From a virus, in IMG/VR virus record IMGVR_UViG_3300029342_000002: DNA of 64,000 bases. The stretch is one strand, 5' to 3'. The notes under the pieces were generated by a model. That model searched no databases, had not been told where the DNA came from, and saw only the letters and a list, made by a program, of their open reading frames with translations. Of this stretch, positions 44,449 to 60,477 are shown piece by piece. A program made the position numbers and the translations under genes. The stretch's first letter is position 1; every line of letters begins with the position of its first letter.

Positions 44449-45042
44449 TTAGACGAGGGTGACGGTGTAGGCGTGGTGTGGCAGCTGTTTGTATTGACCA
44501 AACCATGTCTTATATTTGCGCGAAACGATGAAGCCGAGCATCTTGAGAAGACCGATGGCATTGGTAGCGTATGGCTCGTCTATGACGATGAATGGGGAGC
44601 CTGCGGAATCGAGGTTGATAATGTCTCGCATGAATTGAGGGAACGGATATTCGTATTCGTCCCACTCTCTTGGTTGTTCGCAATCCAGATCGTACTCTCT
44701 TATGTGGCTGCGGCTGACGGTTTTCTCACCGTTTTCTATACGTTCTATGTTTACGGTATAGTATTTTATCATTTCGCCCCAAACGTTCTTTTTTTTCTTC
44801 CACTTTTTTTCATTGACAACGTAGTGTGTAATGATAGGGACAGTGGAAATGAAAAGGGGATTTTTGGGGGCGTTCTTGTAATCGAGAAAGCGCATTGTTC
44901 TGATTGTGAGCTTTGCGGACATATCGTTCTCGCGGAAGAACTCGACCACCGCGTTTTGGAATGCGGCGGTGTCGAAGGGTGGGGCTTTGAAGCCTTTTTC
45001 TTTAAGAATGTCCTGTGCTCGGACAAATTTGGTTACTGACAT
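44449..45042 (-). CDS. hypothetical protein (first gene downstream of the RT locus)
   Basis: 197-aa ORF with the array-type leader (plus strand CATAATTG..TTTGGTTGATAG) and an upstream hairpin. Confidence 0.6.
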   Translation of the reverse strand: MSVTKFVRAQDILKEKGFKAPPFDTAAFQNAVVEFFRENDMSAKLTIRTMRFLDYKNAPKNPLFISTVPIITHYVVNEKKWKKKKNVWGEMIKYYTVNIERIENGEKTVSRSHIREYDLDCEQPREWDEYEYPFPQFMRDIINLDSAGSPFIVIDEPYATNAIGLLKMLGFIVSRKYKTWFGQYKQLPHHAYTVTLV

Positions 45043-45256
45043 AATTGTTTTATTGTTTGGTTGATAGTGGCGGAGGAGGCGATGTGTGCGCCTCGCTACG
45101 CCTCTTCAGGCTGGCTGTGCTAAGATTGTGAATACAAAGGTAGTGATTTTTGCGATTATCGGACAGCCTTTTGGTGATGTTTTTTTCAAGGAAAAGCGGA
45201 CACGCTCTGAGGATGTGTTGCATTTCTGTAAGTGAATGATCGAAGACCGTTCTGAG

Positions 45257-45299
45257 AAACAGATCTATATCGACAGGTGCTGTCGATAAAGATCTGTTG
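45257..45299. ncRNA. 17-bp interrupted hairpin in the RT-downstream region
   Basis: AACAGATCT-at-ATCGACAG-gtg-CTGTCGAT-aa-AGATCTGTT. Confidence 0.4.
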
Positions 45300-45374
45300 A
45301 TGCAAACAGTCTGGAGTGAATGAATCCTCCTTGCGTGTCCTGTGGGATGCAATTCCCGTGGTGCGGACTTCTCA

Positions 45375-45460
45375 TGAGTGGCGGCACATGGCTGTAGGTG
45401 TGTGATGTGTCCAGAACGTGTGCGGGATGTGTGAGGCGGATGCCGCCTTGAACATCCCGC
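45375..45460. ncRNA. RT-associated structured module, copy A
   Basis: GGCGGCACATGG-CTGTAGGTGTGTGATGTGT (motif 45392-45410), then the nested hairpin GCGGGATGT..GGCGG-atg-CCGCC..ACATCCCGC (45422-45460), then GCTGAAC. Confidence 0.4.
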
Positions 45461-45558
45461 ATTAAAGCTCTGGATGCTGAACGGGACTCTCTTGAAGAAC
45501 GCTTCCCTGTGCTTGGGATGATTGAGAGGCTGAGCCTTTCTGAGGGGCGGCTGTGATG

Positions 45559-45680
45559 TCTTGGCACGTGTCTGTAGGTGAATGATGTTGCCTGCGTAGC
45601 AGAAGGCAGCGGTCCCAGTGGGTAACACTCGGGACCGTGCCTTCTTGCTATTGCCGGTATCTGAATGTGACATCCTTGCT
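45559..45680. ncRNA. RT-associated structured module, copy B
   Basis: GTCTTGGCACGTGT-CTGTAGGTGAATGATGTT (45572-45589), then the hairpin GAAGGCAgCGGTCCC..GGGACCGTGCCTTC (45602-45644), then CTGAATGTGACATCC. Confidence 0.4.
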
Positions 45681-45715
45681 CCGCGATGCCCTGTGCCGGG
45701 CTGGTGATGCGGCTC

Positions 45716-46981
45716 TTAGAGGTTGGCTACGATGGTGTCGTAGGCGGCTTTGCTGGTAAGCAGGGCCTTGCGGGCGCAGCCTAATGTGAGGTAGCCGGTG
45801 ATGATGGGGGCGGTCTTGCTGCGGTTGGCGGTGACGTTTCGTCCTCGTCCTCTCTGTATGCAGCCGACCTGCTGATTCTTGACGAACCCTATGCCTCCTA
45901 TCTTTCGCTTGCCCGTCTTGACGGCTCGGAGGCAGTCCATGACGAACGTGTTGAGCGTCTGGACGTCCTCTTCGACGTTTATGATGGGCAGGACCTGCGT
46001 GGACCATGAATGTCCTTCGTACCCCTTGTATAGATAGCGGTTGACGGAGTTTATGGCTTTTTGCAGGGTGACGTCACGCTTCTTGACTGTGCGCTTCTCG
46101 ATTTCCTTCTGAAAAGTCTTGATGCGCGTAGACGAGAGCGAGATGCTGCTGCCCTTGATGGAGAATCCGAGGAACTTGAACCAATGGTCAGCGTCGAGGA
46201 ATTCTACCTTCTTTGGATTGAGCTTCATCTGCATCTTCGCCAGCTCTTCCTCCATGATGCGCTTGGCTTCCTGCCAGTCCTCGCCCACGAAGATGGCGTC
46301 GTCCGAATAGCGGCAGTAGACGCCGCGGAGACGGGAGAGGCGCTCGTCAATGTGATAGAGGACCACGTCGGCAAGCCATGAGGCTACGCTGCATCCCTGC
46401 TTGAGCGACTGGTATTTCTCGGAGAGAGTGCCGTCGGTGTCGAAATAGAGATTGCAGTGGTAGTAAGCGCGTAGGACGTCTATCAGAGCGGAATGACCGT
46501 GACGAAGCTCTACCTGATCGAACGCCCAGTCGATGTACGACAGGAGCACCGTATCGAAATACTTGGACAGGTCGGACTTGAAGCCTCCGATGCGTCCTTC
46601 CGCGAAGGATATATGTCGGGATATGTTCTGTACGACGCGTCCGCATCCGATGCCCTTCTGATATGATGTGCAGCAGGGATGGACCATTTCGGGTGTCAGT
46701 TCGAAGAGGAGGTCGTTGGCAATGGAGAGGAGTATGCGGTCGGCAGGCTCGTTGATGTAGACGGTGCGGAATTCTCCGTTGTCCTTCGGTATAAGAGCCG
46801 TGTGAGGTGGCATTATCCTGTACTTGCCGTCGCGTATCTTCTGATACATCAAGGCACGTGCCTCGGGTGTGGTGAGCTGATAGAGCGTGGCTTTGTTGAT
46901 GTCCTTGTCGAGTCCTTTCTGTATGGCGTACTGCCAACGCTCGGACTGGAAGGCCATCTGTAAGATTTTGTCTTCTTTCAT
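45716..46981 (-). CDS. reverse transcriptase (stand-alone; class not assigned)
   Basis: ATG at 46981 with the array-type leader. RT motifs 1-7: FRTVYINEP/DRILLSIANDLL, FKSDLSKYFDTV, LKQGCSVASWLADVVL, YCRYSDDAIFVG, MKLNPKKVEF, FKFLGFSI. About 140 aa of thumb-like tail. No other domain recognised. Confidence 0.85.
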   Translation of the reverse strand: MKEDKILQMAFQSERWQYAIQKGLDKDINKATLYQLTTPEARALMYQKIRDGKYRIMPPHTALIPKDNGEFRTVYINEPADRILLSIANDLLFELTPEMVHPCCTSYQKGIGCGRVVQNISRHISFAEGRIGGFKSDLSKYFDTVLLSYIDWAFDQVELRHGHSALIDVLRAYYHCNLYFDTDGTLSEKYQSLKQGCSVASWLADVVLYHIDERLSRLRGVYCRYSDDAIFVGEDWQEAKRIMEEELAKMQMKLNPKKVEFLDADHWFKFLGFSIKGSSISLSSTRIKTFQKEIEKRTVKKRDVTLQKAINSVNRYLYKGYEGHSWSTQVLPIINVEEDVQTLNTFVMDCLRAVKTGKRKIGGIGFVKNQQVGCIQRGRGRNVTANRSKTAPIITGYLTLGCARKALLTSKAAYDTIVANL

Positions 46982-47084
46982 AATTCTTTGGATTTTATGG
47001 TTAATAGAGCGTGAAACATAATGTTTCACGCAGTTTCTGGCGGTGAGGCTCAGAGGAGCGGTGCCTGGATATAAACGGATGATC

Positions 47085-47150
47085 TGGTACTGTCATCTGT
47101 AGTGACGTCGCCGGGATGATATGGCCGGCGACGTCCCGATTGTGACAGTG
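47085..47150. ncRNA. RT-associated structured module, copy C1 (weaker motif)
   Basis: CTGTCAT-CTGTAGTGA overlaps an 11-bp perfect hairpin, GACGTCGCCGG-gatgatatgg-CCGGCGACGTC (47104-47134), extended by CTGTCA/TGACAG. Confidence 0.35.
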
Positions 47151-47209
47151 CCGATGAATGTTCTTCTGCCTCCTCACGGGAAGGACGACAAATCCTTTGC
47201 GGTGCAGCC

Positions 47210-47320
47210 GTGGGCTTGGAGTCTGGCTGTAGGCGAATGATCTGACGACTGCGGTTCGAGGTCAGGACCCAGCCACGGTAATCGACCTGGCTGGTTCCTG
47301 AGTCTCAGAGAGCAGCGTGT
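47210..47320. ncRNA. RT-associated structured module, copy C2
   Basis: GGCTTGGAGTCTGG-CTGTAGGCGAATGATCT (47227-47243), then the hairpin CAGGAcCCAGCC..GGCTGGtTCCTG (47263-47300). Confidence 0.4.
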
Positions 47321-47369
47321 GAACGATGCCCACCCACTGCACGGCGGTGACTTTCGGGGTGATGACGGA

Positions 47370-48380
47370 CTATCGGTCAGCCCACTCGTCAATCTTGTCG
47401 CTCACGGACATGTCTGAATCGGCGATGAGCTGCTTGAGCACGCCCAGCAAGCGCCATCCCTCATCTTCGCGGGCATACTCGGCAGCCTTGCTTTCGATAT
47501 GCTCAAGAGACTTGGCTTCGGACATATTGCGACGGCCCTGCTTGAAGTGTGCTCCGTGGAACAAGACCATGTTGCGCATGGTGAAGTAGGCGCCGGAACC
47601 CTTGTAGGCGTTGATGAACGCCTCGGACTGCTTGGTGTCGGCAGGGAGACGCTTCATAAGCTTGTTGAACTTGACAACAAGACGATAGAGACGTTCTCCG
47701 TTGACGTCATTCATTGCAAGGGCAAGGTCGCGGAAAGGGCTGTAAAGCTTGGACTCCAAGTCAGAGACGAAGATATTCTCTCTGCTAAGACGTACATAGG
47801 GCTTACCCTTGCAAGTGTGAGTGCCTTGGCGCAACAGCTTTTCGATGTAAGAGCGGAGCTTCTGAACATAGTCGAACGCCATGTATGAAGCTACCCTGCC
47901 GTTGAACCAAAGGGCACGCTGTTCGTAGCAGACCTTGTCCTTGTGCTTGAGCATCTTGTACTGGTCGAGCAGTTCCTTCTCAAGCATGCGCCACTGATAG
48001 GCGTAGCCCTTGTTCTGCAAGAGGGCGTTGAAGGAGACGTTCTGACGCTCCATGCGGTCGAGCATGTGGAACATCTGTGACATTACCCAACGGCGGTAGA
48101 GCGTGTAGTTGCGGATGTGACCCCCTCCTGCGATGCTCGCGAAGACGGGATCGTCGTCCGTAACCTGTACGGGGACTCCGTCAACGACCTTGACGACCAT
48201 CTCCTCTCCCATGGGAAAGTAGTTGGAAACGTCTACGCCTGCTGCCTTGAGAGCTGCGATGCGTGTTGCCGCTGACTTCGCCTTTGGCGCTGTTGTGTTC
48301 TGCGACTGTGCCTGTGTGTCGGCGTTAGCTACCTCTGTCATTGTGAACTCACCTGAAATGATAAGATTTCTCTTTTTCAT
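47370..48380 (-). CDS. hypothetical protein
   Basis: 336-aa ORF with the array-type leader and an upstream hairpin (GGCGAGGGGATGCCTCGTC). Confidence 0.6.
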   Translation of the reverse strand: MKKRNLIISGEFTMTEVANADTQAQSQNTTAPKAKSAATRIAALKAAGVDVSNYFPMGEEMVVKVVDGVPVQVTDDDPVFASIAGGGHIRNYTLYRRWVMSQMFHMLDRMERQNVSFNALLQNKGYAYQWRMLEKELLDQYKMLKHKDKVCYEQRALWFNGRVASYMAFDYVQKLRSYIEKLLRQGTHTCKGKPYVRLSRENIFVSDLESKLYSPFRDLALAMNDVNGERLYRLVVKFNKLMKRLPADTKQSEAFINAYKGSGAYFTMRNMVLFHGAHFKQGRRNMSEAKSLEHIESKAAEYAREDEGWRLLGVLKQLIADSDMSVSDKIDEWADR

Positions 48381-48480
48381 AATTCAAAGATTTAAAATTG
48401 TTAATAATGTTGGTTGATTGGTGGGCGAGGGGATGCCTCGTCCTGTTTTTTGGTGGTGAGAATGGCAGGGGATAGGATTG

Positions 48481-48520
48481 GCCTCACTGAGCCTCACTGA
48501 GCCTTACTAAGCCTTTTGGG
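48481..48520 (+). repeat. 10-bp phased GCCT repeat array (locus 5 of 5)
   Basis: GCCTCACTGA GCCTCACTGA GCCTTACTAA GCCTTTTGGG. Confidence 0.6.
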
Positions 48521-48526
48521 GCGTCC

Positions 48527-48982
48527 TTAATCTTCTTTTGACTTTGGCTCTACCCATTGTCGGAGGATAATGAGGTCCTTGTCGTTCGGGGACTGCCAAA
48601 ACCAGCTGCCCCACTTGCTCTGCCATTGGAGCTGTCCGTCAAACAACATGAGAAGGACGAAGACTTCGAGCTGGCAGCGTGCCACTTCGCGTGATACGCC
48701 GTAGAGCATGTCGTGGTCAGAGAGGTCTTTCTCAGGGAGAGCCTTGAAATAACTGCGTCGGTGTGACTCGGAGCGCTCAGAGGGGATGGAGTGCTTGTAC
48801 TGCTGGTAATACCTTTCGATTTCGCGGAGCATAACGGACCCGTTGAGAGGGAGGATGTTGACATCGTCGAGACTGACAAGCTCTCTGTCCAGACGGAGTG
48901 TGCGCTTCTCGAAATTGACGGTGAAACGTGAGCCGAGTTCTACGGCTTGTGAGATGTTCTGCATAAATTGCGTGTGTGTCAT
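48527..48982 (-). CDS. hypothetical protein
   Basis: ATG at 48982 carries the array-type leader (plus strand CATAACTCTTGATGTTTTGGTTTG). The tracked start at 49015 lies upstream of that leader. Confidence 0.55.
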   Translation of the reverse strand: MTHTQFMQNISQAVELGSRFTVNFEKRTLRLDRELVSLDDVNILPLNGSVMLREIERYYQQYKHSIPSERSESHRRSYFKALPEKDLSDHDMLYGVSREVARCQLEVFVLLMLFDGQLQWQSKWGSWFWQSPNDKDLIILRQWVEPKSKED

Positions 48983-49204
48983 AACTCTTGATGTTTTGGT
49001 TTGTTGGCGGTACACTCAAAGGGAATGTCGCATGACTATATGGCGTTGATGTTATCCCGTGTGAAGCACGCGGAGATGTCTGAGTGATAGCTTCAGACAT
49101 CTCGCGTATCTCGTACGGGAAACCAAATAATCCCTCCTTGTGTACCCATTCAGGCTGCGATACCTATTGCTGGTCCATAATCATGTTTTGATGGTTGATG
49201 ATGT

Positions 49205-49320
49205 GGCGTGACGAAGACTTGGCGCATTACTGTAGGTCGTTGATGTATCCAGCGGTAGACTCATCCGGGTAGTGTCCCGGATGAGACGCTGGAGACTGAA
49301 TCCTGTCTTCGCTCACGCCT
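49205..49320. ncRNA. RT-associated structured module, copy D (detached)
   Basis: Closing helix GGCGTGAcGAAGAC / GTCTTCgcTCACGCC. CTTGGCGCATTA-CTGTAGGTCGTTGATGTAT (49230-49248). Hairpin CCAGCG-gtaga-CTCATCCGGG-tagtgt-CCCGGATGAG-a-CGCTGG (49249-49292), then CTGAATCC. Confidence 0.45.
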
Positions 49321-49348
49321 GTTTAAGGCTGCGCTACCTTGGCTTAGG

Positions 49349-49570
49349 TTATAACTGCTGCCACTTGGTTGTGCCGTTGGCCTCCTCTGTGCGGTAGTAA
49401 TCTTGGTCTTCTTCGACTTCGATGCAGTTGTCTATATAATCGTCACTTGTCAGAACGATGTCGTTTTTGAGATAAGCATCTCTTATACGCTGTACAGCTT
49501 CTGCTTCGCTGTCGGCATTCACACTTACCACCTTGTTGAGAAACTCGGTGATTGATACATAATACTTCAT
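49349..49570 (-). CDS. hypothetical protein
   Basis: 73-aa acidic ORF with an array-type leader variant and a hairpin (CAGAGGGA..TCCCTCTG). Confidence 0.55.
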   Translation of the reverse strand: MKYYVSITEFLNKVVSVNADSEAEAVQRIRDAYLKNDIVLTSDDYIDNCIEVEEDQDYYRTEEANGTTKWQQL

Positions 49571-49624
49571 ATTTGTCTTTTTTTTATTTGGTTGAACTTG
49601 CAGAGGGATTGCTCCCTCTGAGGT

Positions 49625-49897
49625 TTAGGCGTAGATGTTGTGCGTCTCGATGAGGCGCTTGTACTTCTTAGGGAATTTGTCCCAACCGTAGTAGACCTGT
49701 ACAATCTGGCAGGAGGACCAGGAATTGAGAGCGTACTCGTAGATGTAGTAGCACTTCTTTTGTCCCGTGTCGTCATAGAGAATCCAATCGCCTGAAGCGA
49801 GTGAACCCTCGCTGAGGTGGATGGCATAACCGCCTGCATCCTCGTAGCGGAAGACGAGGTCGTCAACATAATGGTAGTCACATCTGAATTTTCTCAT
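49625..49897 (-). CDS. hypothetical protein
   Basis: 90-aa ORF with the array-type leader. Ends in GCC-TAA. Confidence 0.55.
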   Translation of the reverse strand: MRKFRCDYHYVDDLVFRYEDAGGYAIHLSEGSLASGDWILYDDTGQKKCYYIYEYALNSWSSCQIVQVYYGWDKFPKKYKRLIETHNIYA

Positions 49898-49989
49898 AAT
49901 TTATATAATATTTGGTTCTTATTGTTCCGTTGTCGGTGTCGCTCCGATTGTGGTTTCTTTCCCCAACGGATAAGCCATGCTACTACGTT

Positions 49990-50145: not shown

Positions 50146-50202
50146 AATTCTTTAATTGTTGGTTAATAGCACTCTCCGCGAGGGAGAGTCTTTTTTTAGC
50201 TT

Positions 50203-54184: not shown

Positions 54185-54249
54185 AATCGTATGTTGGTTG
54201 GTAATGTTCCTGTGTGTTATCCACACAGGATGATTCGGGCAGCAATGTG

Positions 54250-54432: not shown

Positions 54433-54493
54433 AATTCAAATTGGTTTTTATGGTTTGTGTGTGCCTCCGTGAGGGGGAGGCTTTTCTGGTCGG

Positions 54494-54856: not shown

Positions 54857-54922
54857 AATTCTTGCGGTTTGTTGGTTATTTGTACCTCCCCGAAGGGAGG
54901 CGGTTTAGGTGGCTGTCTTGTC

Positions 54923-55228
54923 CTACGTGTATTTCAGAGAGTCGCGCTCAACTCTTCGCATACATTCATGGCAAGCGTCAAGGAATACTTTGTACGCAAC
55001 CTTGAATGTTGGCAGACTTTCTTTCCTGTCAGAGCAGATGGGAACAGCGTCATTATACACACGTCCCCATACTGTAAGGTCTGTATTAATGCCTACTGTG
55101 TACGACATCTTGCTTTCCTTACAGCGGAAGTGTAGGATGTACTCTTTGTTCTTACGTCTTTTCAGACGTGACAACGTCATTCCTAAATCGGGACGGACGT
55201 TAAAATCTTTGTCTTGTAGTATTTTCAT
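54923..55228 (-). CDS. hypothetical protein
   Basis: ATG at 55228 with an array-type leader (CATAATCC). Confidence 0.5.
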   Translation of the reverse strand: MKILQDKDFNVRPDLGMTLSRLKRRKNKEYILHFRCKESKMSYTVGINTDLTVWGRVYNDAVPICSDRKESLPTFKVAYKVFLDACHECMRRVERDSLKYT

Positions 55229-55297
55229 AATCCGTAATGTTTTAAGTGGTTGATAATTGTTAAGGATGCTACTTGCTGACAAATAGCATCCTTATGT

Positions 55298-55546
55298 TCA
55301 GGCGATGCGGTAAGCGGAAACGACATGGTCGTAAAAACCACGCGCGGTGTCTTCATCCATGAGAGGAGAGTCTACGAGCGCATGACCGATTTTGTCATTG
55401 ATACACACGCTGTATCTGTCTCCCCACGTCCATTTGATAATCTTCACGGTGTACTGATAGTTGGATTTCTCGTCTATCACGTCACAGGCGAGCAATGGGT
55501 CGTTCGTCAGGATTTCATCTAACTCATTTCTTTCCTTTTCTGTCAT
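55298..55546 (-). CDS. hypothetical protein
   Basis: 82-aa ORF with the array-type leader. Ends in GCC-TGA. Confidence 0.55.
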   Translation of the reverse strand: MTEKERNELDEILTNDPLLACDVIDEKSNYQYTVKIIKWTWGDRYSVCINDKIGHALVDSPLMDEDTARGFYDHVVSAYRIA

Positions 55547-55637
55547 AATTCTTGCGGTTTTGGTTTGTGTGTGATGGGGAATTTCATCCCCATCGTTTTA
55601 GGCTTTACAAACAGGATGTGTAGCCCGTACTGTAGAG

Positions 55638-56099
55638 TTACTTTTGCGGCGTTGTCAGCTGGTCGCAGATCGCGATGCGCTGACTGGCGCGGATAAGCTT
55701 CGGAAGATACTTGTCGAGGCTGTAGTTAGGAAAGCCTGTCATCTTGTTGAGTTTCTCTGTATGCCTGTTTATGAGTGGAGTACCGAGGATTTCGGCAACT
55801 TTGACCGCATCCTCATTGTAACACTCGTAATAATCGCCGACACGGAAAAGCAACAGGCAGTCGGGATGCTTCTCCCTAATTTCTGCCCATTTCTTGTATG
55901 GCGTCGGTTTCTCGGGCTGCGGAACATACGACTCCTCTGTGTGAGAAATCGCTTCTCCGCACATGTAGTAGATGTCACTCGAACGGTAGCCGAGAATGTC
56001 GTAGAGATAATACTCTATCTGCTCTGTCTCCCAGTCGTCGGGACAGCCCTTTATTGTTCGGACGGTGGCTGTCTGATAATCCATAATTGTTATTTCCAT
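55638..56099 (-). CDS. stand-alone MutS domain I (mismatch-binding domain) homolog
   Basis: KHPDCLLLFRVGDYYECYNEDAVKVAEILG...MTGFPNYSLDKYLPKLIRASQRIAICDQ aligns by eye with the E. coli MutS N-terminus, [29 protein letters not shown]...[28 protein letters not shown]. Only 153 aa, with no ATPase domain. Confidence 0.7.
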   Translation of the reverse strand: MEITIMDYQTATVRTIKGCPDDWETEQIEYYLYDILGYRSSDIYYMCGEAISHTEESYVPQPEKPTPYKKWAEIREKHPDCLLLFRVGDYYECYNEDAVKVAEILGTPLINRHTEKLNKMTGFPNYSLDKYLPKLIRASQRIAICDQLTTPQK

Positions 56100-56162
56100 A
56101 ATTCTTGATGTTTTGGTTCGTAGAAATCCTTACTCTTACGGGTAAGGATTGTTTTGGGCTTG

Positions 56163-56402
56163 TTAGTGTTTGTCGAACATGAGCATGTCTACCATTCTGT
56201 AGAATGTATATCCGTCAACTTGGTTGTAGATGAATCCGATGAAACGACGGCGGGATTCCATGTTCAATGAGCGGTAATAACTCTTGAAAGTGGAATAGTT
56301 CCCGTTTACCCATGCCTCCCAAATAAGGTCCATCATTTCCATCTCGTCATGTACTTCGTAGTACTTTGCCTGCTGGAGCAGCGTCTTGCTTCTTCTTGTC
56401 AT
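56163..56402 (-). CDS. hypothetical protein
   Basis: 79-aa ORF with the array-type leader. Confidence 0.5.
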   Translation of the reverse strand: MTRRSKTLLQQAKYYEVHDEMEMMDLIWEAWVNGNYSTFKSYYRSLNMESRRRFIGFIYNQVDGYTFYRMVDMLMFDKH

Positions 56403-56450
56403 AATTCTTTGTTTGTTGGTTCGTTGTGGGGGAGGCTGGCTCCCCTTGGG

Positions 56451-56864
56451 TTAGGCATAAATAATTGACCTGCCATGAGTATTACGTAATACTTTCAGGA
56501 GGTGCGGGTCTGAATTGTGATACTTACGTATATACTGCTCACACTTCTGCTTTGTATCAAAGTAGACAACTTCGTGTGGGTTGTTAGGCTTTACGCAAAA
56601 CCACATCCTACCACCGAAAACATCACCAATGCCACATGGCACCACTTCAAAGCGTGGGTAGACTTTTGTTTCTTCGGAATATACGTTATCGTAACATGCG
56701 TAAACCTCCATTGGAATACCATACACTTTTCTTTCGTCTGCATCATGGATAGCCTCCATTTTTGCAGAAGTACAATTATTGTTAGTTGCTGAATAACTGC
56801 ACAATACACCTCCGTCAGTTGGGTCGACGAGTACATAGCCCGTCAATTTTTTTGTTTGTTCCAT
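56451..56864 (-). CDS. hypothetical protein
   Basis: 137-aa ORF with an array-type leader variant. Ends in GCC-TAA. Confidence 0.55.
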   Translation of the reverse strand: MEQTKKLTGYVLVDPTDGGVLCSYSATNNNCTSAKMEAIHDADERKVYGIPMEVYACYDNVYSEETKVYPRFEVVPCGIGDVFGGRMWFCVKPNNPHEVVYFDTKQKCEQYIRKYHNSDPHLLKVLRNTHGRSIIYA

Positions 56865-56918
56865 ATTCTATAATTTTGTTGGTTAATAGTAGCGGAGTTG
56901 TATCTCCGCTTGTTTAGG

Positions 56919-57083
56919 CTATCTGCCGAAGTATTTGCGCTCGAAATCTTCGTAACTCTCGCAGTTGAAGACAATCGCAACGCATTTCAAACCACGGGCA
57001 ATTAAACTCTGTTTGACTTCTTTTGTAAGTTGTTCGCCTGTGTACACCTCAAAAGGAGGGAACACGAAATAATCCTGTGTCAT
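56919..57083 (-). CDS. small hypothetical protein (54 aa)
   Basis: Hand-translated as MTQDYFVFPPFEVYTGEQLTKEVKQSLIARGLKCVAIVFNCESYEDFERKYFGR. Array-type leader and the hairpin CCCCACGATCGTGGGG (57107-57122). Confidence 0.45.
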   Translation of the reverse strand: MTQDYFVFPPFEVYTGEQLTKEVKQSLIARGLKCVAIVFNCESYEDFERKYFGR

Positions 57084-57137
57084 AATAATTCTGTTTGGTT
57101 AATAGACCCCACGATCGTGGGGGTTTTAGGCTGTGGC

Positions 57138-57431
57138 TTACTTGCCGGCTTTCTCGTTCACGTAGGCTACAAGGCGCTCGAACTTTGCGTCGTTTTCTTC
57201 TGTGCTGTAGAACGGATTGAATGAGAAATACTCATTGTAAGTGAGGGAATCTACGTCTTTCTTGTCCTTATTGTAGCCAACGCAAACGCCGATTTGGGCA
57301 GATATGCAGGGATCTACCACAATAGATAGGCCCAGATGCTTGTCAAAAAATGTTCTTCTCTGCATCTCCTGTATTTTTGGGAGGATTACTTTGGCTATCC
57401 TCTCAGACTCTGTAAGCTTTTTCTTTTCCAT
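57138..57431 (-). CDS. hypothetical protein
   Basis: ATG at 57431 with the array-type leader. The tracked longer start lies inside the upstream hairpin region. Confidence 0.5.
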   Translation of the reverse strand: MEKKKLTESERIAKVILPKIQEMQRRTFFDKHLGLSIVVDPCISAQIGVCVGYNKDKKDVDSLTYNEYFSFNPFYSTEENDAKFERLVAYVNEKAGK

Positions 57432-57498
57432 AATTCTCTTGTTTTTATTGGTTATCTTGAGCCGTGACACGCACAATAATAGTGCTGCCACGGCATTT

Positions 57499-57633
57499 TC
57501 AGGCGATGAAGGCTACAGTGAGGAATTTTCCGTCATAACTAAGAAATTCAACGTGTGTATACATTTCCTGCATCTTTGCGAAAACTCTTTCCATAAATGC
57601 TGCACCTTTGCACTCAATTCTTCTTGTACTCAT
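57499..57633 (-). CDS. small hypothetical protein (44 aa)
   Basis: Hand-translated as MSTRRIECKGAAFMERVFAKMQEMYTHVEFLSYDGKFLTVAFIA. Array-type leader. Ends in GCC-TGA. Confidence 0.4.
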   Translation of the reverse strand: MSTRRIECKGAAFMERVFAKMQEMYTHVEFLSYDGKFLTVAFIA

Positions 57634-57690
57634 AATTCTGTGATTTTAATTGGTTTGCTGGAAGGTAGCCAAACGGCTACCCTTTTGAGA

Positions 57691-58014
57691 CTAACCTCGT
57701 TTTTCGAGGGCTACACTGACGAAATAAGGAAGACTCTCACATTTTACCTCGTTCCATTCGCAGTTAACAACGGCACTCACATACTTGCTCTCCTGCTTGT
57801 GAATAAGACGGGTAATTGTACTTCTGCTTATAGTGGAAGATTTTTCCACCTCAAAACTGGCGTGAGCCATATATCCGTCCTGTGAAAAATCAACAAGTCC
57901 CTGTCTTCTCGCTACTGCGACAATTCCGTGAAAAGCGTTGATAAAAACGTATTTCTCACCATCAAAATACACGTCGATGCGTGTGTGATTTTCTTGCGTC
58001 TTAAAGTATTCCAT
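57691..58014 (-). CDS. hypothetical protein
   Basis: 107-aa ORF with the array-type leader. Confidence 0.55.
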   Translation of the reverse strand: MEYFKTQENHTRIDVYFDGEKYVFINAFHGIVAVARRQGLVDFSQDGYMAHASFEVEKSSTISRSTITRLIHKQESKYVSAVVNCEWNEVKCESLPYFVSVALEKRG

Positions 58015-58076
58015 AATTCTGATTTTAGTTGTTAATGATGTGCGGACGCATCATTTGCGATACGTCCCTTTTAGGC

Positions 58077-58253
58077 TTAGAAACAACGCGGACGAGAGAA
58101 ATGACGTTCTATCTCCTTCGCTTTCCTGTCTGCTTTCGCAGCTCTCCGTGAATACTCGCGCTCGTCAAGGTGTCTTCTCTCACACTCAGCTGAAATAACT
58201 CTCTTGTAGCTTGCCACAATCGCAGCAAGAAACATTCTGTCTCCGTTTGTCAT
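58077..58253 (-). CDS. small hypothetical protein (58 aa)
   Basis: ATG at 58253 with the array-type leader. Confidence 0.45.
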   Translation of the reverse strand: MTNGDRMFLAAIVASYKRVISAECERRHLDEREYSRRAAKADRKAKEIERHFSRPRCF

Positions 58254-58311
58254 AATTCTTTTTGTTTTGGTTAATAGAGCCACCCAAATAAGAGTGGCGT
58301 TTTGGCGTGAA

Positions 58312-58578
58312 TTAGTCGCTGACATTGAAGAGCAGAACCTCTTCTTTGTCGTTGATACTCAGACGTAAGTCAGGAGTGAACCTTTCAATACTACCCATCC
58401 TTTCATGGTCCCATTTGTAGACCGCTATCCATATTCCAACGGGAAGCGAGTGATCTTCTTTCGTCCCGCAGACCACTTTTGTGCCCACATGGCTGAAATG
58501 CCAAAAGATATTCCACTGGCCATTGTCAAGCCCTTCACATCTGATTGCGTCAATCAATAAAAATGTCTTGTACTTCAT
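58312..58578 (-). CDS. hypothetical protein
   Basis: 88-aa ORF with an array-type leader (CATAATCC). Confidence 0.5.
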   Translation of the reverse strand: MKYKTFLLIDAIRCEGLDNGQWNIFWHFSHVGTKVVCGTKEDHSLPVGIWIAVYKWDHERMGSIERFTPDLRLSINDKEEVLLFNVSD

Positions 58579-58646
58579 AATCCTTTGTCTTTAATTGGTT
58601 AATTATCGTACTGCCCGACTTGCAGGCAGCTTTTAAGGCTGGAACT

Positions 58647-58841
58647 TTAGAAGCAGAAATCAACGTATACATTACGCGTACCGCCGAACTCGCTCCAATG
58701 ATTTACATTGTCGTACTTGTAGGCTTCGTACTTTCTCGAACTTCTGTTGTATTCGTCACGTACCCAAACAGGGGCGCTCTCTGATTCTGACAAGCGGAAA
58801 AATTCACCAACTCGTACTTTACGCAATTCTGTCTTTTTCAT
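58647..58841 (-). CDS. hypothetical protein
   Basis: 64-aa ORF with the array-type leader. Confidence 0.5.
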   Translation of the reverse strand: MKKTELRKVRVGEFFRLSESESAPVWVRDEYNRSSRKYEAYKYDNVNHWSEFGGTRNVYVDFCF

Positions 58842-58858
58842 AATTCTTTAAAGGTTTA

Positions 58859-59140
58859 ATTATCGTACTACCCCAAAACAGGGTAGCAATTAAGGCTCAA
58901 CACTTTCCAGGCACAATTTTCGTACTGCTCAGGATTCTGAACTCGGCTTGAGGAGGATCTTTTCCAAGCGCTCATTCTCACGCACGAAATTCTTGAAGAA
59001 TCCGTTGCCAATTTTCGTACTGCTCCAGAAATAGAGCAGAAACAATATGTAAAGGATTCCAAGCACACTGATTATCGTACTGCTTAAAATAAGCAGACAC
59101 GGAACAAGCTGAAGGTTTCCAAGCACAATTATCGTACTGC
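58859..59140 (+). repeat. array of five ATT[AT]TCGTACT[GA]C 13-mers (a sixth copy at 58602-58614), spacing about 57-95 bp
   Basis: Copies at 58859, 58916, 59011, 59071 and 59128. Three are preceded by TTCCA[AG]GCACA. Confidence 0.65.
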
Positions 59141-59165
59141 TACGTAAAATCTGTCTCTTTGTCAT
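58929..59165 (-). CDS. possible 78-aa hydrophobic repeat protein (coding status uncertain)
   Basis: Has the array-type leader at 59165, but the body consists of the 13-mer repeat units (SSTIIVLG / SSTIISVLG / SSTKIGNG). An alternative frame, 58868-59068, is also open. Confidence 0.35.
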   Translation of the reverse strand: MTKRQILRSSTIIVLGNLQLVPCLLILSSTIISVLGILYILFLLYFWSSTKIGNGFFKNFVRENERLEKILLKPSSES

Positions 59166-59225
59166 AATTCTGAATTTTTGATGGTTAACTGGAAGGTAGC
59201 CAAAAGACTACCCTTTTTAGGCGGA

Positions 59226-59405
59226 TTAGAAATACCTGTCATGCAGGTATAAAACATAGTTCTTGAATCTACTCATATATGGGTCGCGGGCTGCAAAACA
59301 ATAGTCAGCAAAATCCGCACGTGTCAAAAATCCCATGTTGTAGATTTCAATGGCATGCTCAATCTCTGAGTACATAGCCCATAAATTTACATTCGTTGTC
59401 TCCAT
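59226..59405 (-). CDS. small hypothetical protein (59 aa)
   Basis: ATG at 59405 with the array-type leader and the hairpin CCCCACAATCGTGGGG. Confidence 0.45.
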   Translation of the reverse strand: METTNVNLWAMYSEIEHAIEIYNMGFLTRADFADYCFAARDPYMSRFKNYVLYLHDRYF

Positions 59406-59521
59406 AATTCTTTTAGGTTTGGTTTGTAGACCCCACAATCGTGGGGAATTTTCTTAGGCTATACGGATTTGTAGAGCAGCCACAAGGACCGCTTTACTAC
59501 AAATCCAAACAGTTTCCCTTT

Positions 59522-59710
59522 TTAGGCTTGAGTTCTAAGGAACTCTACTTCTGACGGAGTTAGGGATAAGCCTATAACAAAAAAGTCAACTATCGACTTT
59601 TTAAAATTTGTACGCTTTAAGTCTGCTATCATTTCCGTATAGGTATCAATAGCATTGATGTCTGAGCCTGCATTTACTTTCTCAATCTTTTGCATAATTT
59701 GTTCTTTCAT
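59522..59710 (-). CDS. small hypothetical protein (62 aa), first gene of the array
   Basis: ATG at 59710 with the array-type leader. The tracked longer ORF extends into the non-coding leader. Confidence 0.45.
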   Translation of the reverse strand: MKEQIMQKIEKVNAGSDINAIDTYTEMIADLKRTNFKKSIVDFFVIGLSLTPSEVEFLRTQA

Positions 59711-60340
59711 AATTCTATAATTTAATTGGTTGTTAATTGGTAGAGCAGCCACAAGGACTGCCCTAATTTGCCTTAGGACGTGCATCTTGGCACCGCGTTT
59801 GTCGTTATTGTCTTCTCTCACGGCTCACGCCCTACCTGTAACGCTGAGGTGCGCCCTGTTTCCTAACAGCTGACAGGGAACTGCTTTTTCTCAATTTGGT
59901 ATGCCCTTTTGCGTATAGCTCACTGCAACCACCACGTTGCAGACGATTTAGCGAGTAACTAACTCGCACGCTCGTGACACGTTAGAATATGAATTATGAA
60001 TTATTTGATTTGTCCCGCTGCTCTCACGCCGAGCACGTTCTGCGAACCTTCGGTTTTGCCGTTCGTAATTCCGCTCTTCTTGCTTCGCTGCCTTCAGTCA
60101 TCGCTGCTTTCCCTTACGTCTTGTCAACTGCTAAGTTCCAGAGCTAAGGGCTTTTCGTGGTGGTGGATGTCTTTTCCACAAGTCACGGAAAACCCTGTCG
60201 GACAAATTGCCCAACCTGTGCCTGTGCGAGGAACAAACAAGAGAGTTTGTGTCGCTGAAACAATGGTTAACGGAATTTCAAACGGCTTTCCTAATGGTCG
60301 CTGCCGTCAGTGTTCCCAATAGGGAACGTATGATTATAGT

Positions 60341-60454: not shown

Positions 60455-60477
60455 TTTTAGATTGATGTAATGTTTTG

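What the first reader, a model, noticed from the sequence alone, without database searches (positions are those of the whole stretch)
44449..59760. Cassette-like array: ~27 consecutive small genes, each with the same leader, separated by sequence-variable hairpins
From 59710 down to 45042, almost every minus-strand gene starts with AGAATT-ATG (plus strand CATAATTCT). AACCAA (plus TTGGTT[AG]AT) lies 5-12 nt upstream, and immediately before it is a 7-11 bp hairpin whose sequence is never the same. Examples are CCCCACGATCGTGGGG at 57107-57122 and CCTCCCCGAAGGGAGG at 54885-54900. Eight unrelated ORFs (49625, 49990, 50959, 52021, 55298, 56451, 57499, 59522) end in Ala-stop (GCC-TAA or GCC-TGA) right at the hairpin foot. 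That suggests the junction itself is a conserved recombination or processing boundary. The hairpin-to-ATG distance (~25 nt) leaves no room for a separate promoter. The A at -3, -4 and -6 fits SD-independent initiation reported for Bacteroidetes. The architecture recalls the promoter-early-stem-loop (PeSL) modules of T4-type hyperplastic regions, but I have not seen it described for this kind of phage. The RT, the MutS-domain protein and the methylase-like protein are all cassettes in this array.
Basis: partly seen in the sequence, partly recalled or inferred. Interest (0 to 1): 0.7.

Follow-up and report, generated by a model that had tools for sequence, protein, structure and literature searches.

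The report
Shuffling gene-cassette junctions in Prevotella phages
A common group of gut Prevotella phages carries a row of about 30 small genes, each separated by the same three-part signal (stop codon block, RNA hairpin, fixed leader), and related phages swap, gain and lose genes exactly at these signals, which makes it a promoter-less counterpart of the 'PeSL' cassettes known from T4-type phages.

Summary
On the minus strand from 59765 to about 44000, 26 gene starts carry the same junction. Its parts are a stop codon in or near GCCTAAAA, a variable hairpin, NCTATT, AACCA(A), a 9-12 nt G-free A-rich stretch, and AGAATT-ATG.

The same junction fills arrays in more than 200 viral contigs and in Segatella copri, Leyella and Prevotella prophages. 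It occurs 599 times on one strand and once on the other.

The hairpins act as sense-strand RNA. Stem mismatches are 49 G·U against 3 A·C, and 43% of tetraloops are GNRA or UNCG. They lack a U-tract, with C at +2 in 98% of cases. No host-type promoter box occurs in the 16-kb array.

Between genomes that are 90-98% identical, 59% of 214 clean indels cross over at the AACCA core or leader, against 5.5% by chance. A second crossover zone is the GCCTAAAA block.

The integrases are not integron-type, and crossover positions follow local identity. The element is therefore a homology-driven linker that also carries expression signals.

It is best described as a new, promoter-less, SD-less variant of PeSL-type regulatory cassettes. 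Whether the transcripts are polycistronic and processed, or started at each gene, cannot be settled without RNA data.

The parts
44005..59765 (-). Co-oriented array of about 31 mostly small genes (median about 80 aa). It includes RT, N6-methylase, an M42-like peptidase, a MutS-I fragment and about 20 ORFans.
   Evidence: Gene map. Identical gene calls on public contig L243. Pfam and PHROG.
59739..59836 (-). Head-of-array conserved non-coding element, a candidate structured leader RNA. GGUAGGGCG (59836-59828) pairs with GCUCUACC (about 59746-59739). It contains GGTGCCAAGATGCACGTCC at 59794-59776, and its last hairpin is the first junction hairpin.
   Evidence: Occurs once per contig in at least 119 viral stretches. 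Alignment and RNAalifold show 2-5 covarying pairs. No Rfam match.
59708..59765 (-). Junction 1: hairpin 59741-59765, core about 59727-59734, AGAATT-ATG (ATG at 59710).
59403..59456 (-). Junction: GCCTAAGAAAA block, hairpin 59431-59446 (CCCCACgattGTGGGG), core 59420-59424, ATG 59405. A remnant copy of the head hairpin lies just upstream, at about 59465-59490.
59163..59224 (-). Junction: CGCCTAAAA, hairpin 59193-59214, core 59182-59186, ATG 59165.
58839..58888 (-). Junction: hairpin about 58866-58888, variant core AAACC, ATG 58841. This gene (58841-58647) is absent from L023.
58576..58640 (-). Junction: GCCTTAAAA, hairpin 58610-58630, core 58596-58600, AGGATT-ATG 58578.
58251..58308 (-). Junction: CGCCAAAAC, hairpin 58279-58298, TCTATT, core 58268-58272, ATG 58253.
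58012..58077 (-). Junction: TAA-GCCTAAAAG, hairpin 58044-58067, variant core AACAA 58029-58033, ATG 58014.
57631..57693 (-). Junction: hairpin 57662-57683, core 57651-57655, ATG 57633.
57429..57501 (-). Junction: GCC-TGA stop, long hairpin about 57461-57494, core 57449-57453, ATG 57431.
57081..57132 (-). Junction: AGCCTAAAAC, hairpin 57107-57122 (CCCCACgatcGTGGGG), TCTATT, AACCA, GAATTATT-ATG 57083.
56862..56921 (-). Junction: TAG-CCTAAACA, hairpin about 56891-56910, ACTATT, AACCA, AGAAT-ATG 56864.
56400..56453 (-). Junction: GCC-TAA stop, hairpin 56429-56445, core 56417-56421, ATG 56402. L023 carries an extra 318-bp cassette inserted here, with the crossover in AACCAACAAACA.
56097..56160 (-). 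Junction before the MutS-I gene: AGCCCAAAAC, hairpin 56125-56150, TCTACG, core 56114-56118, ATG 56099.
   Evidence: MutS_I Pfam 80.7 bits.
55544..55604 (-). Junction: AGCCTAAAAC, hairpin 55573-55594, core 55561-55565, ATG 55546. Together with the previous junction it bounds the MutS-I cassette that L023 lacks, with the crossover in AACCAAAAC.
55226..55300 (-). Junction: GCC-TGA stop, 15-bp hairpin 55261-55294, core 55247-55251, CGGATT-ATG 55228.
54854..54911 (-). Junction: CACCTAAACC, hairpin 54884-54901 (UUCG loop), core 54873-54877, ATG 54856.
54430..54481 (-). Junction: hairpin 54463-54481, core 54451-54455, TGAATT-ATG 54432.
54182..54230 (-). Junction: hairpin 54208-54230, core 54198-54202, ACGATT-ATG 54184.
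53674..53750 (-). Junction: CGCCTGAAAC, hairpin about 53708-53739, TCTATTATC, AACCA 53694-53698, AGAAT-ATG 53676. Left boundary of the 2.8-kb two-gene block (551 aa and 329 aa) that L023 lacks.
51946..52023 (-). Junction: GCC-TAA stop, 12-bp hairpin 51987-52016, core 51973-51977, ATG 51948.
50881..50961 (-). Junction before the N6-methylase gene: GCC-TAA stop, a second AGCCTGAAAACC block, hairpin 50911-50930, ACCATC, core 50900-50904, ATG 50883. Right boundary of the L023 deletion, with the crossover in ATCAACCATT.
50143..50200 (-). Junction: hairpin 50171-50189, GCTATT, core 50160-50164, ATG 50145. L023 has an extra gene inserted here.
49568..49627 (-). Junction: GCC-TAA stop, hairpin about 49601-49620 (GCAA loop), core 49589-49593, ATG 49570.
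48980..49028 (-). Weaker junction: hairpin 49012-49028, core 49001-49005, AGAGTT-ATG 48982.
46979..47031 (-). Junction before the RT gene: hairpin 47009-47031, TCTATT, core 46998-47002, ATG 46981.
   Evidence: In 48 loci the orthologous RT is preceded by at least 6 unrelated hairpins.
45040..45094 (-). Degenerate junction lying inside the end of the upstream ORF: core 45058-45062, ACAATT-ATG 45042.
38891..38941 (-). Outlying junction-like site outside the array: hairpin 38927-38941, core 38914-38918, AAGATT-ATG 38893.
60423..60454 (-). Canonical intrinsic terminator (9-bp GC-rich stem followed by T7) after the 188-aa gene, upstream of the array. It shows what a real terminator looks like in this genome.
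   Evidence: sequence
34380..35060 (-). YqaJ/RecE-like recombination exonuclease, a candidate phage enzyme for recombination on short homology.
   Evidence: Pfam PF09588 85.7 bits. PHROG exonuclease.
41997..43031 (-). Tyrosine integrase next to the array, with its own TACCTTTG -7 box at 43079. It is not integron-type.
   Evidence: PHROG integrase. TIGR02249 scores 20 bits against a cutoff of 265. Promoter box.

Best explanation
The array is the accessory, early-type region of a temperate Prevotellaceae (Segatella, Leyella, Prevotella) tailed phage. Every gene or small gene group in it is bounded by one composite junction.

Shown:
- The junction has a fixed anatomy: upstream stop codon in or near GCCTAAAA, a stable hairpin of variable sequence, N-C-U-A-U(-U), AACCA(A), a G-free A-rich stretch, and AGAAUU-AUG.
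- The hairpin is selected to fold in the sense transcript.
- The stretch from AACCA to the AUG has the properties of an optimised Shine-Dalgarno-independent Bacteroidetes translation start.
- The two conserved blocks flanking the hairpin are the places where related phages have exchanged, gained or lost cassettes. The crossover point follows local sequence identity (median 28 nt), which points to homologous or microhomology recombination and not to a site-specific enzyme.

Inferred:
- The array has no host-type promoter boxes. The hairpins lack U-tracts and carry a near-invariant C at +2. A single conserved, apparently structured element sits only at the head of the array. From these three facts I infer that the array is transcribed as one long unit from its head.
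- On this view the hairpins serve as cistron-end RNA structures. They would protect 3' ends, insulate the unstructured leader, and possibly mark processing sites. They would not be efficient terminators.
- Each incoming cassette needs only the uniform leader to be expressed.

The result is a promoter-less, PeSL-like plug-and-play cassette platform.
For: Anatomy and enrichment: for the window. One search gives 599 strict motifs on one strand against 1 on the other in 118 loci, of which 118 are there by construction of the search.

Hairpin presence: 87% of 418 unique junctions have one, against 13% for shuffled sequence and 21% for coding controls.

Sense-RNA function: isolated stem mismatches are 49 G:T against 3 A:C, p = 1e-11. 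Of 70 tetraloops, 30 are GNRA or UNCG in sense orientation, against 5 in antisense and 4.7% expected, p = 1e-21. Compensatory changes occur within orthologous hairpins.

Not terminators: the 3' flank is N-C(0.98)-T-A(0.90)-T-T-A-A. Terminator-like sites in the array fall almost only on the antisense strand. A canonical hairpin plus T7 terminator exists at 60423-60454.

No sigma-A promoter: no TAnnTTTG occurs on the coding strand between 45142 and 61312. That motif precedes 81% of primary start sites in B. thetaiotaomicron (PMC7366714).

Leader: G is at most 0.03, A is 0.66-0.80 at -11 to -13 and 0.80 at -6. This matches A-3, A-6, A-12 and A-13 as positive determinants (PMC6847099). Non-array genes in the window have only the generic A-rich context.

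Recombination: five indels against L023 have crossovers in AACCAAAAC, ATCAACCATT, AACCAACAAACA and TTAAAGA. 37% of breakpoint ends lie at junctions against 5.9% at random. 59% of 214 clean indels are centred at -10 to +30 of the core against 5.5% at random, with a median insert of 304 bp. One hairpin is joined to at least 5 unrelated upstream genes at GC(C)TAAAAA. There are 136 cassette families, with up to 11 different neighbours per family.

Head element. A phage YqaJ exonuclease is present.
Against: No transcript data exist, so polycistronic transcription, hairpin function and any processing are inferred only.

The NCUAU-AACCA block is more strongly conserved and more tightly tied to the hairpin (1-2 nt) than a simple unstructured leader would need to be. 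Some sequence-specific factor is therefore probably involved and has not been identified.

The absence of TAnnTTTG over 16 kb is only mildly unlikely by chance (about 3.6 expected).

No promoter for the head of the array could be identified either.

Breakpoint events were de-duplicated but are not phylogenetically independent. Selection against breakpoints inside genes would by itself enrich intergenic breakpoints, although not specifically in the core as opposed to the hairpin.

The partner annealing protein of the YqaJ exonuclease was not identified.
Confidence: 0.6

Rival explanations
1. True PeSL analogue. Each junction is a terminator followed by a non-canonical promoter. NCTATT-AACCA would be read by host RNA polymerase with an alternative or phage-encoded factor. 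Every cassette would then be its own transcription unit with a 5' UTR of about 20 nt.
For: The order of parts matches PeSLs. The core starts 19-23 nt before the ATG, which equals the modal 5' UTR of 23 nt in B. thetaiotaomicron. The core is conserved beyond what a leader needs and is specific to the array. Self-sufficient cassettes would be the most portable.
Against: No -7 or -33 sigma-A elements are present. Everything upstream of NCTATT is a variable hairpin, so at most about 11 conserved bp are available. No sigma factor or RNA polymerase was recognised in the window. The hairpins lack U-tracts. A single dedicated head element exists.
Confidence: 0.2
2. RNA punctuation. The hairpin plus NCUAU-AACCA is a recognition site for a specific endoribonuclease, host or phage. 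The enzyme would cut a long early transcript into monocistronic mRNAs with hairpin-protected 3' ends and uniform 5' leaders. This refines the best explanation and is not exclusive of it.
For: The hairpins are sense-RNA elements. The hairpin is fixed 1-2 nt from CUAU. The leader is G-free and AU-rich, the type of sequence RNase E, G and Y favour. The stop codon lies within 14 nt of the hairpin. Cleavage near the core would give a leader of host-typical length. From memory, stem-N-CUA resembles a tRNA stem-N-CCA end.
Against: No nuclease candidate was identified. Stem and loop sizes (6-13 bp, 4-nt loops) are unlike tRNA minihelices. No data on RNA ends exist.
Confidence: 0.25
3. The array-specific AGAAUU-AUG and/or AACCA blocks are operators for a phage translational repressor or mRNA-targeting nuclease, comparable to T4 RegA or RegB, that switches the whole early set off together.
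For: The exact hexamer abuts the AUG in 16 of about 31 genes and differs by one base in most others. It is absent from the other genes of the same phage. Coordinated shut-off of early genes is well established in T4 (own knowledge).
Against: No RegA- or RegB-like protein was detected. The conservation could equally be kept up by recurrent recombination.
Confidence: 0.15
4. Integron-like site-specific cassette system. The hairpins would be folded single-stranded DNA sites recombined by the adjacent tyrosine recombinase.
For: The array consists of co-oriented cassettes without visible promoters. Hairpins are conserved in structure and variable in sequence, with conserved flanks. The stop codon sits in a GCCTAA block that resembles the attC inverse core RYYYAAC. 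Two tyrosine recombinases lie next to the array.
Against: The integron-integrase model scores 20 bits against a cutoff of 265. The flanking blocks are not complementary, because A(-2) faces C(+2). Crossovers fall at varying positions that follow local identity, in either block. The loops are enriched for RNA-specific GNRA and UNCG tetraloops. The integrase has its own promoter and looks like an ordinary lysogeny integrase.
Confidence: 0.03
5. The hairpins are terminators against antisense transcription, because on the + strand each is followed by TTTTAGGC.
For: Terminator-like sites in the array are almost all on the + strand.
Against: The wobble asymmetry (49 G:T against 3 A:C) and the tetraloop orientation (30 sense against 5 antisense) show that the fold is selected on the coding strand. 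The A-run is largely stop-codon context.
Confidence: 0.03

Closest known systems
PeSL (promoter-early stem-loop) regulatory cassettes of T4-type phages (Arbiol 2010, PMC2839356; Comeau 2014, PMC4122927)
   Same: Both are composite intergenic elements with the order stem-loop, expression signals, ATG. Both are concentrated in a co-oriented region of small, mostly ORFan, non-structural genes. In both, near-identical genomes differ by single-gene insertions, deletions and replacements whose crossovers lie in the conserved part between the stem-loop and the ATG. Both are explained as linkers for homologous recombination on short homology.
   Different: No sigma-type -35/-10 (or -33/-7) promoter is present, and there is no room for one (25-28 nt). 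There is no Shine-Dalgarno sequence. A second conserved block contains the upstream stop codon. The host phylum is Bacteroidota and the phage is temperate with an integrase. Promoter activity, terminator activity and mini-circles are untested here.
Start-associated sequences (SAS/ESAS) of Cluster K mycobacteriophages (Pope 2011, PMC3203893)
   Same: Both are clade-specific asymmetric sequences placed a few bases before the ATG of many non-structural genes, in one orientation only. Both are often preceded by an inverted repeat. In both, the upstream stop codon sometimes lies inside the conserved sequence. The function of SAS/ESAS is unproven and is thought to be translational.
   Different: SAS contains an SD core. 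The ESAS inverted repeats are conserved in sequence, and the authors found that they do not support RNA pairing. Here the stems vary in sequence and show strong RNA signatures. No role in recombination was reported for SAS.
Integron cassette arrays and attC sites
   Same: Both are arrays of co-oriented cassettes that rely on outside or minimal expression signals. In both, the boundary elements are defined by structure more than by sequence. Both can have a stop codon inside the 5' boundary block.
   Different: No IntI-type integrase is present, the R''/R' boxes are not complementary, there is no fixed crossover point, and the hairpin is selected as RNA.
Intercistronic mRNA stabiliser hairpins (REP sequences in malEFG, puf operon stem-loops, T7 early RNase III sites); own knowledge
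   Same: All are stable stem-loops at cistron ends inside long transcripts that lack U-tracts. This is the role inferred here.
   Different: Those elements are not coupled to a conserved leader and are not known as cassette-exchange points. The function here is not shown by experiment.
Morons and 'boundary/linker' sequences of lambdoid phages; own knowledge
   Same: Both involve accessory genes added between core genes, with mosaic joints at short conserved sequences between genes.
   Different: Morons carry their own promoter and terminator and occur singly. Here a uniform junction is repeated about 26 times in one genome and thousands of times across the clade.

Membership tests
PeSL (T4-type phages) | Stem-loop in the intergenic space just upstream of the expression signals of the next gene | tested here: met
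   87% of 418 junctions have a stem of at least 6 bp ending 3-14 nt before the core. 26 such junctions occur in the window.
PeSL (T4-type phages) | Strong sigma-70-like promoter (-35 and -10 boxes) between the stem-loop and the ATG | tested here: not met
   Only 25-28 nt separate the hairpin from the ATG. No Bacteroidetes TAnnTTTG occurs on the coding strand from 45142 to 61312. Sigma-70-type matches do not coincide with the junctions.
PeSL (T4-type phages) | Shine-Dalgarno sequence and start codon at the 3' end of the element | tested here: not met
   The leader is G-free (G at most 0.03), so no SD is present. An A-rich leader typical of Bacteroidetes ending in AGAATT-ATG takes its place.
PeSL (T4-type phages) | Concentrated in hyperplastic regions of small non-essential or ORFan genes | tested here: met
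   Median ORF length is 81 aa in 136 families. 19 of 20 small window genes have no PHROG match. The junction is absent from structural and replication genes.
PeSL (T4-type phages) | Insertions, deletions and replacements between close relatives have crossovers inside the element | tested here: met
PeSL (T4-type phages) | The stem-loop terminates transcription, and recombination between elements yields mini-circles | not testable with these tools
   This needs reporter assays and inverse PCR. The sequence argues against efficient termination, because there is no U-tract and C is at +2.
Integron | IntI-type integrase | tested here: not met
   TIGR02249 scores 20.2 bits against a cutoff of 265 for 41997-43031, and gives no hit for 40150-41334.
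Integron | attC with complementary R''/R' boxes forming the base of the hairpin | tested here: not met
   The 5' flank ..CCTAAAA and the 3' flank NCTATTAACCA do not pair, because A at -2 faces C at +2.
Integron | Crossover at one fixed position (G/TT of R') | tested here: not met
   Crossover intervals lie from -45 to +20 relative to the core and also in the upstream block. They follow local identity.
Intrinsic (Rho-independent) terminator | GC-rich RNA hairpin on the transcribed strand | tested here: met
   Median dG is -12.2 kcal/mol. Wobble and tetraloop signatures are in sense orientation.
Intrinsic (Rho-independent) terminator | U-tract immediately after the hairpin | tested here: not met
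   The consensus is N-C(0.98)-U-A(0.90)-U-U-A-A. Almost no junction passes the terminator scan on the coding strand.
SAS/ESAS (Cluster K mycobacteriophages) | 13-bp GGGATAGGAGCCC motif with an SD core, 3-7 bp before the start, plus or minus a conserved 17-bp inverted repeat | tested here: not met
   The sequence is different, there is no SD, and the stems vary in sequence. The two are analogous, not homologous.
Diversity-generating retroelement (for the RT 'cassette') | Template and variable repeat pair with adenine-specific mismatches | tested here: not met
   No repeat of the RT-flanking non-coding regions occurs anywhere in the window on either strand.

The most novel reading that the evidence does not exclude
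The junction is a dedicated RNA 'punctuation mark'. A specific factor, such as an endoribonuclease or an RNA-polymerase or ribosome accessory, would read the hairpin plus NCUAU-AACCA. One structured head RNA would license a 16-kb early transcript that is then cut into uniform monocistronic mRNAs. The same signal doubles as the recombination linker. This would amount to an integrase-free, integron-like cassette platform, with its own expression grammar, in one of the most abundant groups of temperate phages of human-gut Prevotella.
Probability: 0.2. Interest if true: 0.8.

Novelty: new variant of a known kind. Interest (0 to 1): 0.6.

Why it matters
1. It extends the PeSL idea. Conserved expression signals acting as linkers for modular gene shuffling were known from lytic T4-type phages of Proteobacteria. 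Here the same idea appears in temperate phages of Bacteroidota, rebuilt with that phylum's own SD-less translation grammar and without a promoter.

2. The motif is a practical search handle. With it I recovered 1,835 small genes in 136 families from 209 loci. This is a ready catalogue of early or accessory phage genes (candidate host-takeover and anti-defence genes) for Segatella and Prevotella, a major human gut genus that has very few cultured phages.

3. The leader and the hairpin are naturally portable expression parts. They could serve genetic tools in Prevotella and Bacteroides.

4. The system offers a clean test bed for how internal cistrons are expressed and stabilised in bacteria whose ribosomes ignore Shine-Dalgarno sequences.

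Tried and rejected
- Antisense-terminator reading. It was suggested by TTTTAGGC on the + strand and rejected by wobble and tetraloop strand asymmetry.
- Integron or attC reading. Rejected by integrase typing, non-complementary flanks and variable crossover points.
- Ala-stop as a mere frame coincidence. Rejected: the block's TRA is the real stop in 63% of cases against 33% expected.
- Link between the junction system and the RT. Bacteroides phage BS-TP1, with a 65% identical RT, has no strict junctions.
- Bacteroides phage Versailles, which shares a radical-SAM protein with the window, also lacks the junction system: 1 strict motif in 50 kb and no array. Its sigma factor has no homologue in the window.
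- DGR nature of the RT. No template or variable repeat occurs on either strand.
- tRNA-like fragment at 60340-60386 as attP, which would place the array downstream of a host tRNA in lysogens. Not supported: contigs of 69.7 kb and 186 kb are colinear across it, and no tRNA occurs in the prophage loci held.
- Known RNA families. No Rfam match for the window or for the head region.
- Near or distant DNA matches to GenBank phages. Essentially none.
- Host-type promoter for the head of the array. None found.
- Identity of the 288-aa neighbour of YqaJ as an annealing protein. No Pfam or PDB hit, and the listed homologues are all at least 95% identical, so no useful alignment could be built.
- Identity of the 188-aa protein upstream of the array. 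No Pfam or PHROG hit.
- Literature searches for this system in Prevotella or Segatella phages. Nothing found.
- A covariance model was not built. The variable stem lengths align poorly with MAFFT, so explicit hairpin and regex scans with controls were used instead.

Full report
**What is in the window**

The window is a tailed, temperate phage or prophage. It carries a tape-measure protein (99-3362), a 1,999-aa virion protein, a tail fibre, an endolysin and a replication initiator. It also carries a YqaJ exonuclease, an Ant/Rha antirepressor and two tyrosine integrases.

The finding covers the minus-strand block from about 59765 down to about 44000. My gene map has about 31 genes there, most of 44-150 aa. 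An independent gene caller on identical public contigs (69.7 kb and 186 kb) called the same genes. Within gene families, substitutions fall 23/18/59% on codon positions 1/2/3, so the small ORFs are real genes.

**Check of the observation**

CATAATTCT with up to 1 mismatch occurs 36 times against 16.3 expected. 24 of these lie on the + strand between 45040 and 59716. The composite motif AACCA-N9-15-GAATTATG occurs 14 times on the minus strand, never on the plus strand, and never in 100 Markov simulations.

Lining up all intergenic regions gives a fixed anatomy on the coding strand:

1. The upstream stop codon, often inside a block (A/C)GCCTAAAA.
2. A hairpin of 5-15 bp with a 3-8 nt loop.
3. 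A spacer, most often 6 nt, with consensus TCTATT.
4. AACCA(A).
5. 9-12 nt that are A-rich.
6. AGAATT-ATG.

26 starts have all parts and four have part of them.

Two details need correction. Two hairpin pairs in the window are near-identical. The GCCTAAAA block is a third conserved element, and it is what generates the Ala-stop.

**It is a clade-wide system**

The exact 20-base pattern CTATTAACCAA-N6-12-AGAATTATG hits at least 118 stretches of IMG/VR contigs of 40-170 kb, where about one is expected. In those 980 kb the strict motif occurs 599 times on one strand and once on the other. 118 of the 599 are there by construction of the search.

In bacterial genomes, arrays occur in Segatella copri (including a complete chromosome), Leyella stercorea and Prevotella sp. 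One further array is in a gut MAG labelled 'Bacilli' (L141), which is probably mis-binned. The remaining genome hits are single chance matches. The host is therefore Prevotellaceae.

Two cultured Bacteroides phages lack the system. BS-TP1 has a 65% identical RT, and Versailles shares a radical-SAM protein with the window. I found no description of the system in the literature I could search.

**The hairpin**

Of 418 non-redundant junctions, 87% have a stem of at least 6 bp ending 3-14 nt before the core. The figure is 13% for shuffled sequence and 21% for coding controls. The set contains 163 distinct hairpin sequences.

Two independent strand-asymmetry tests show that the fold is selected on the coding strand, as RNA.

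- Isolated stem mismatches are 49 G:T against 3 A:C (p = 1e-11).
- 30 of 70 distinct tetraloops are GNRA or UNCG in sense orientation. Five are in antisense orientation and 4.7% are expected by chance (p = 1e-21 and 2e-5).

Orthologous hairpins show compensatory changes. The median stability is -12 kcal/mol.

The 3' flank is N-C(0.98)-U-A(0.90)-U-U-A-A, which is not a U-tract. A canonical hairpin-plus-T7 terminator exists just upstream of the array, at 60423-60454. In the array, terminator-like sites appear almost only on the antisense strand, because GCCTAAAA reads TTTTAGGC there. The asymmetry tests rule out that antisense reading.

The CUAU element stays 1-2 nt from the hairpin foot. AACCA follows it either directly or 4 nt later. 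Hairpin plus NCUAU is therefore the tight unit.

**The stop-codon block**

The upstream ORF ends 1-14 nt before the hairpin foot in 261 of 298 junctions. Where a C[CT]TRA block is present, its TRA is the real stop in 63% of cases against 33% expected (p = 3e-8). GCC-TAA is the commonest ending.

**The leader**

From AACCA to the ATG, G is almost absent (at most 0.03). A dominates at -13 to -11 (0.66-0.80) and at -6 (0.80). Positions -5 to -1 were fixed by my search pattern. In the window itself, 16 of about 31 genes have exact AGAATT and most of the others differ by one base.

In Flavobacterium johnsoniae, A at -3, -6, -12 and -13 raises translation (PMC6847099). Other genes of this phage have that generic A-rich context but lack AGAATT, AACCA and the hairpin. 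Those three features are specific to the array.

**Promoters**

The Bacteroidetes -7 box TAnnTTTG precedes 81% of primary start sites in B. thetaiotaomicron (PMC7366714). It does not occur on the coding strand between 45142 and 61312, where about 3.6 copies are expected. The integrase has one at 43079.

The hairpin-to-ATG distance of 25-28 nt leaves no room for a -33/-7 promoter. The core starts 19-23 nt before the ATG, which equals the modal 5' UTR of 23 nt in B. thetaiotaomicron. An RNA 5' end at the core, whether primary or processed, would give a host-typical leader.

**Head of the array**

Directly before the first junction lies a conserved non-coding element of about 100 nt (59836-59739). 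Its motif GGTGCMAAGATGCRCRTCC occurs exactly once per contig in at least 119 viral stretches. It precedes different first genes in different lineages.

RNAalifold proposes a closing helix, GUAGGGYG with YGCUCUAC, around three hairpins. The inner helix has two covarying pairs, and the closing helix is kept through wobble changes. Variation is limited, so the structure is only suggestive. It has no Rfam match. It is the best candidate for the control region of the whole array.

**Recombination**

L023 and L065 are 95-98% identical to the window. Five indels separate L023 from the window:

- Gene 58841-58647 is extra in the window. The crossover lies in TTAAAGA, just 3' of the core.
- L023 has an extra 318-bp cassette at about 56400. 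The crossover lies in AACCAACAAACA.
- The MutS-I gene (56097-55568) is extra in the window. The crossover lies in AACCAAAAC.
- The two-gene block 53683-50907 is extra in the window. The crossover lies in ATCAACCATT.
- L023 has an extra gene at about 50165. This crossover is less clear.

Across all pairs of loci, 37% of breakpoint ends lie within -10 to +35 of a core against 5.9% at random. Of 214 non-redundant clean indels, 59% have their crossover interval centred at -10 to +30, against 5.5% at random. The peak is at +5 to +10, the median microhomology is 28 nt, and the median insert is 304 bp.

Upstream of the orthologous RT gene, the same core and leader is joined to at least 6 unrelated hairpins. 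One identical hairpin is joined to at least 5 unrelated upstream genes at GC(C)TAAAAA. Both conserved blocks are therefore crossover zones, and the hairpin can travel with either neighbour.

The crossover position varies and follows local identity. The integrases are ordinary, with the integron model scoring 20 bits against a cutoff of 265. This points to homologous or microhomology recombination. The phage encodes a YqaJ/RecE-type exonuclease, but its presumed annealing partner could not be identified.

The pooled repertoire is 1,835 junction-led ORFs in 136 families, with up to 11 different neighbours per family. 19 of 20 small window genes have no PHROG match.

**Interpretation**

Four things are shown:

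1. The junction has a conserved tripartite form.
2. Its hairpin is a sense-RNA structure.
3. Its leader fits Bacteroidetes translation starts.
4. It is where cassettes are exchanged.

The rest is inferred. The array is probably one long transcription unit started at the head element. The hairpins probably serve as cistron-end stabilisers, insulators or processing marks, and not as terminators. The uniform leader probably makes any incoming cassette expressible.

The strong conservation of NCUAU-AACCA and its tight link to the hairpin suggest an unidentified sequence-specific factor. This keeps three rivals open: one non-canonical promoter per gene, a specific endoribonuclease, and a RegA/RegB-like regulator. 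Only RNA-end mapping can decide between them.

**Comparison with known systems**

The closest known system is the PeSL of T4-type phages. [quoted passage not shown] This junction fails the defining promoter and SD features, so it is an analogue and not a member.

SAS/ESAS of Cluster K mycobacteriophages are a second analogue. Their inverted repeats are conserved in sequence and do not support RNA pairing (PMC3203893).

Integron attC sites, intrinsic terminators and DGRs were tested and excluded.

**Verdict**

This is a real, widespread and apparently undescribed variant of a known kind of element. Interest is moderate to high. It generalises PeSL-type modular shuffling to temperate Bacteroidota phages with a different expression grammar. 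It also gives a motif-based handle on a large pool of unknown phage genes.

Noticed in passing
window 59739-59836 (minus strand): A conserved, probably structured non-coding element sits at the head of the array. It contains GGTGCCAAGATGCACGTCC and occurs once per contig in at least 119 viral contigs. Some covariation is seen and there is no Rfam family. It is a candidate leader RNA or operator controlling the whole array.
   Followed up: partly
window 45716-47371 (minus strand): The RT (RVT_1) scores best against group-II-intron RT at 96.8 bits, below the cutoff, with weak retron and Drt2/3 similarity. It is preceded by a 388-nt non-coding region that folds at -135 kcal/mol. No template or variable repeat exists, so it is not a DGR. 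It may be an undescribed phage RT plus ncRNA module. It is conserved at about 70% identity in about 60 contigs. Its homologue in Bacteroides phage BS-TP1 (gp79) is annotated as 'tail protein'.
   Followed up: partly
window 60340-60386 (minus strand): A tRNA-like 3' fragment (T-arm AAGGGTTCGAATCCCTT plus acceptor strand) scores 23.5 bits on the Rfam tRNA model, below the threshold of 29. It lies in a 768-nt gene-free gap between the 188-aa gene and the array. It is not the prophage end, because long contigs are colinear across it.
   Followed up: partly
window 48983-49348 (minus strand): Two adjacent long intergenic regions (about 170 and 180 nt) have very stable predicted folds (-60 and -65 kcal/mol) and no junction. 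A short repeat, ATCATTCRCCTACAG, is shared with the RT-upstream region (about 47224-47241) and with 45569-45586.
   Followed up: no
window 34380-35923 (minus strand): A YqaJ/RecE-like exonuclease gene overlaps a 288-aa gene of unknown family (phrog_3657). That gene has more than 4,500 close homologues in Prevotella assemblies. It may be a single-strand annealing protein, which would complete a Red-like recombination pair.
   Followed up: partly
window 59465-59490 (minus strand): After the first array gene lies a remnant copy of the head element's last hairpin (GCGGTCCTTGTGGCTGCTCTACAAATCC), followed by a normal junction. It looks like the scar of a cassette insertion at the head.
   Followed up: no
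window 20000-30000: A lower-GC segment (0.39-0.43, against 0.47-0.55 elsewhere) holds tightly packed minus-strand genes with the generic A-rich start context. It suggests a module of different origin.
   Followed up: no
window 19318-20328 (minus strand): A radical-SAM protein matches phrog_24834 at E = 8e-174 and is 73% identical to one in Bacteroides phage Versailles. That phage is otherwise unrelated at the DNA level.
   Followed up: no
L141 (CAAGQJ010000016.1, MAG labelled 'Bacilli bacterium'): This MAG carries a 7-junction array of the Prevotellaceae-phage type. The contig is probably mis-binned.
   Followed up: no
window 38891-38941 (minus strand): One junction-like site (hairpin, AACCA, AAGATT-ATG) lies outside the array, before a 65-aa gene at the start of the replication and recombination gene block.
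   Followed up: no
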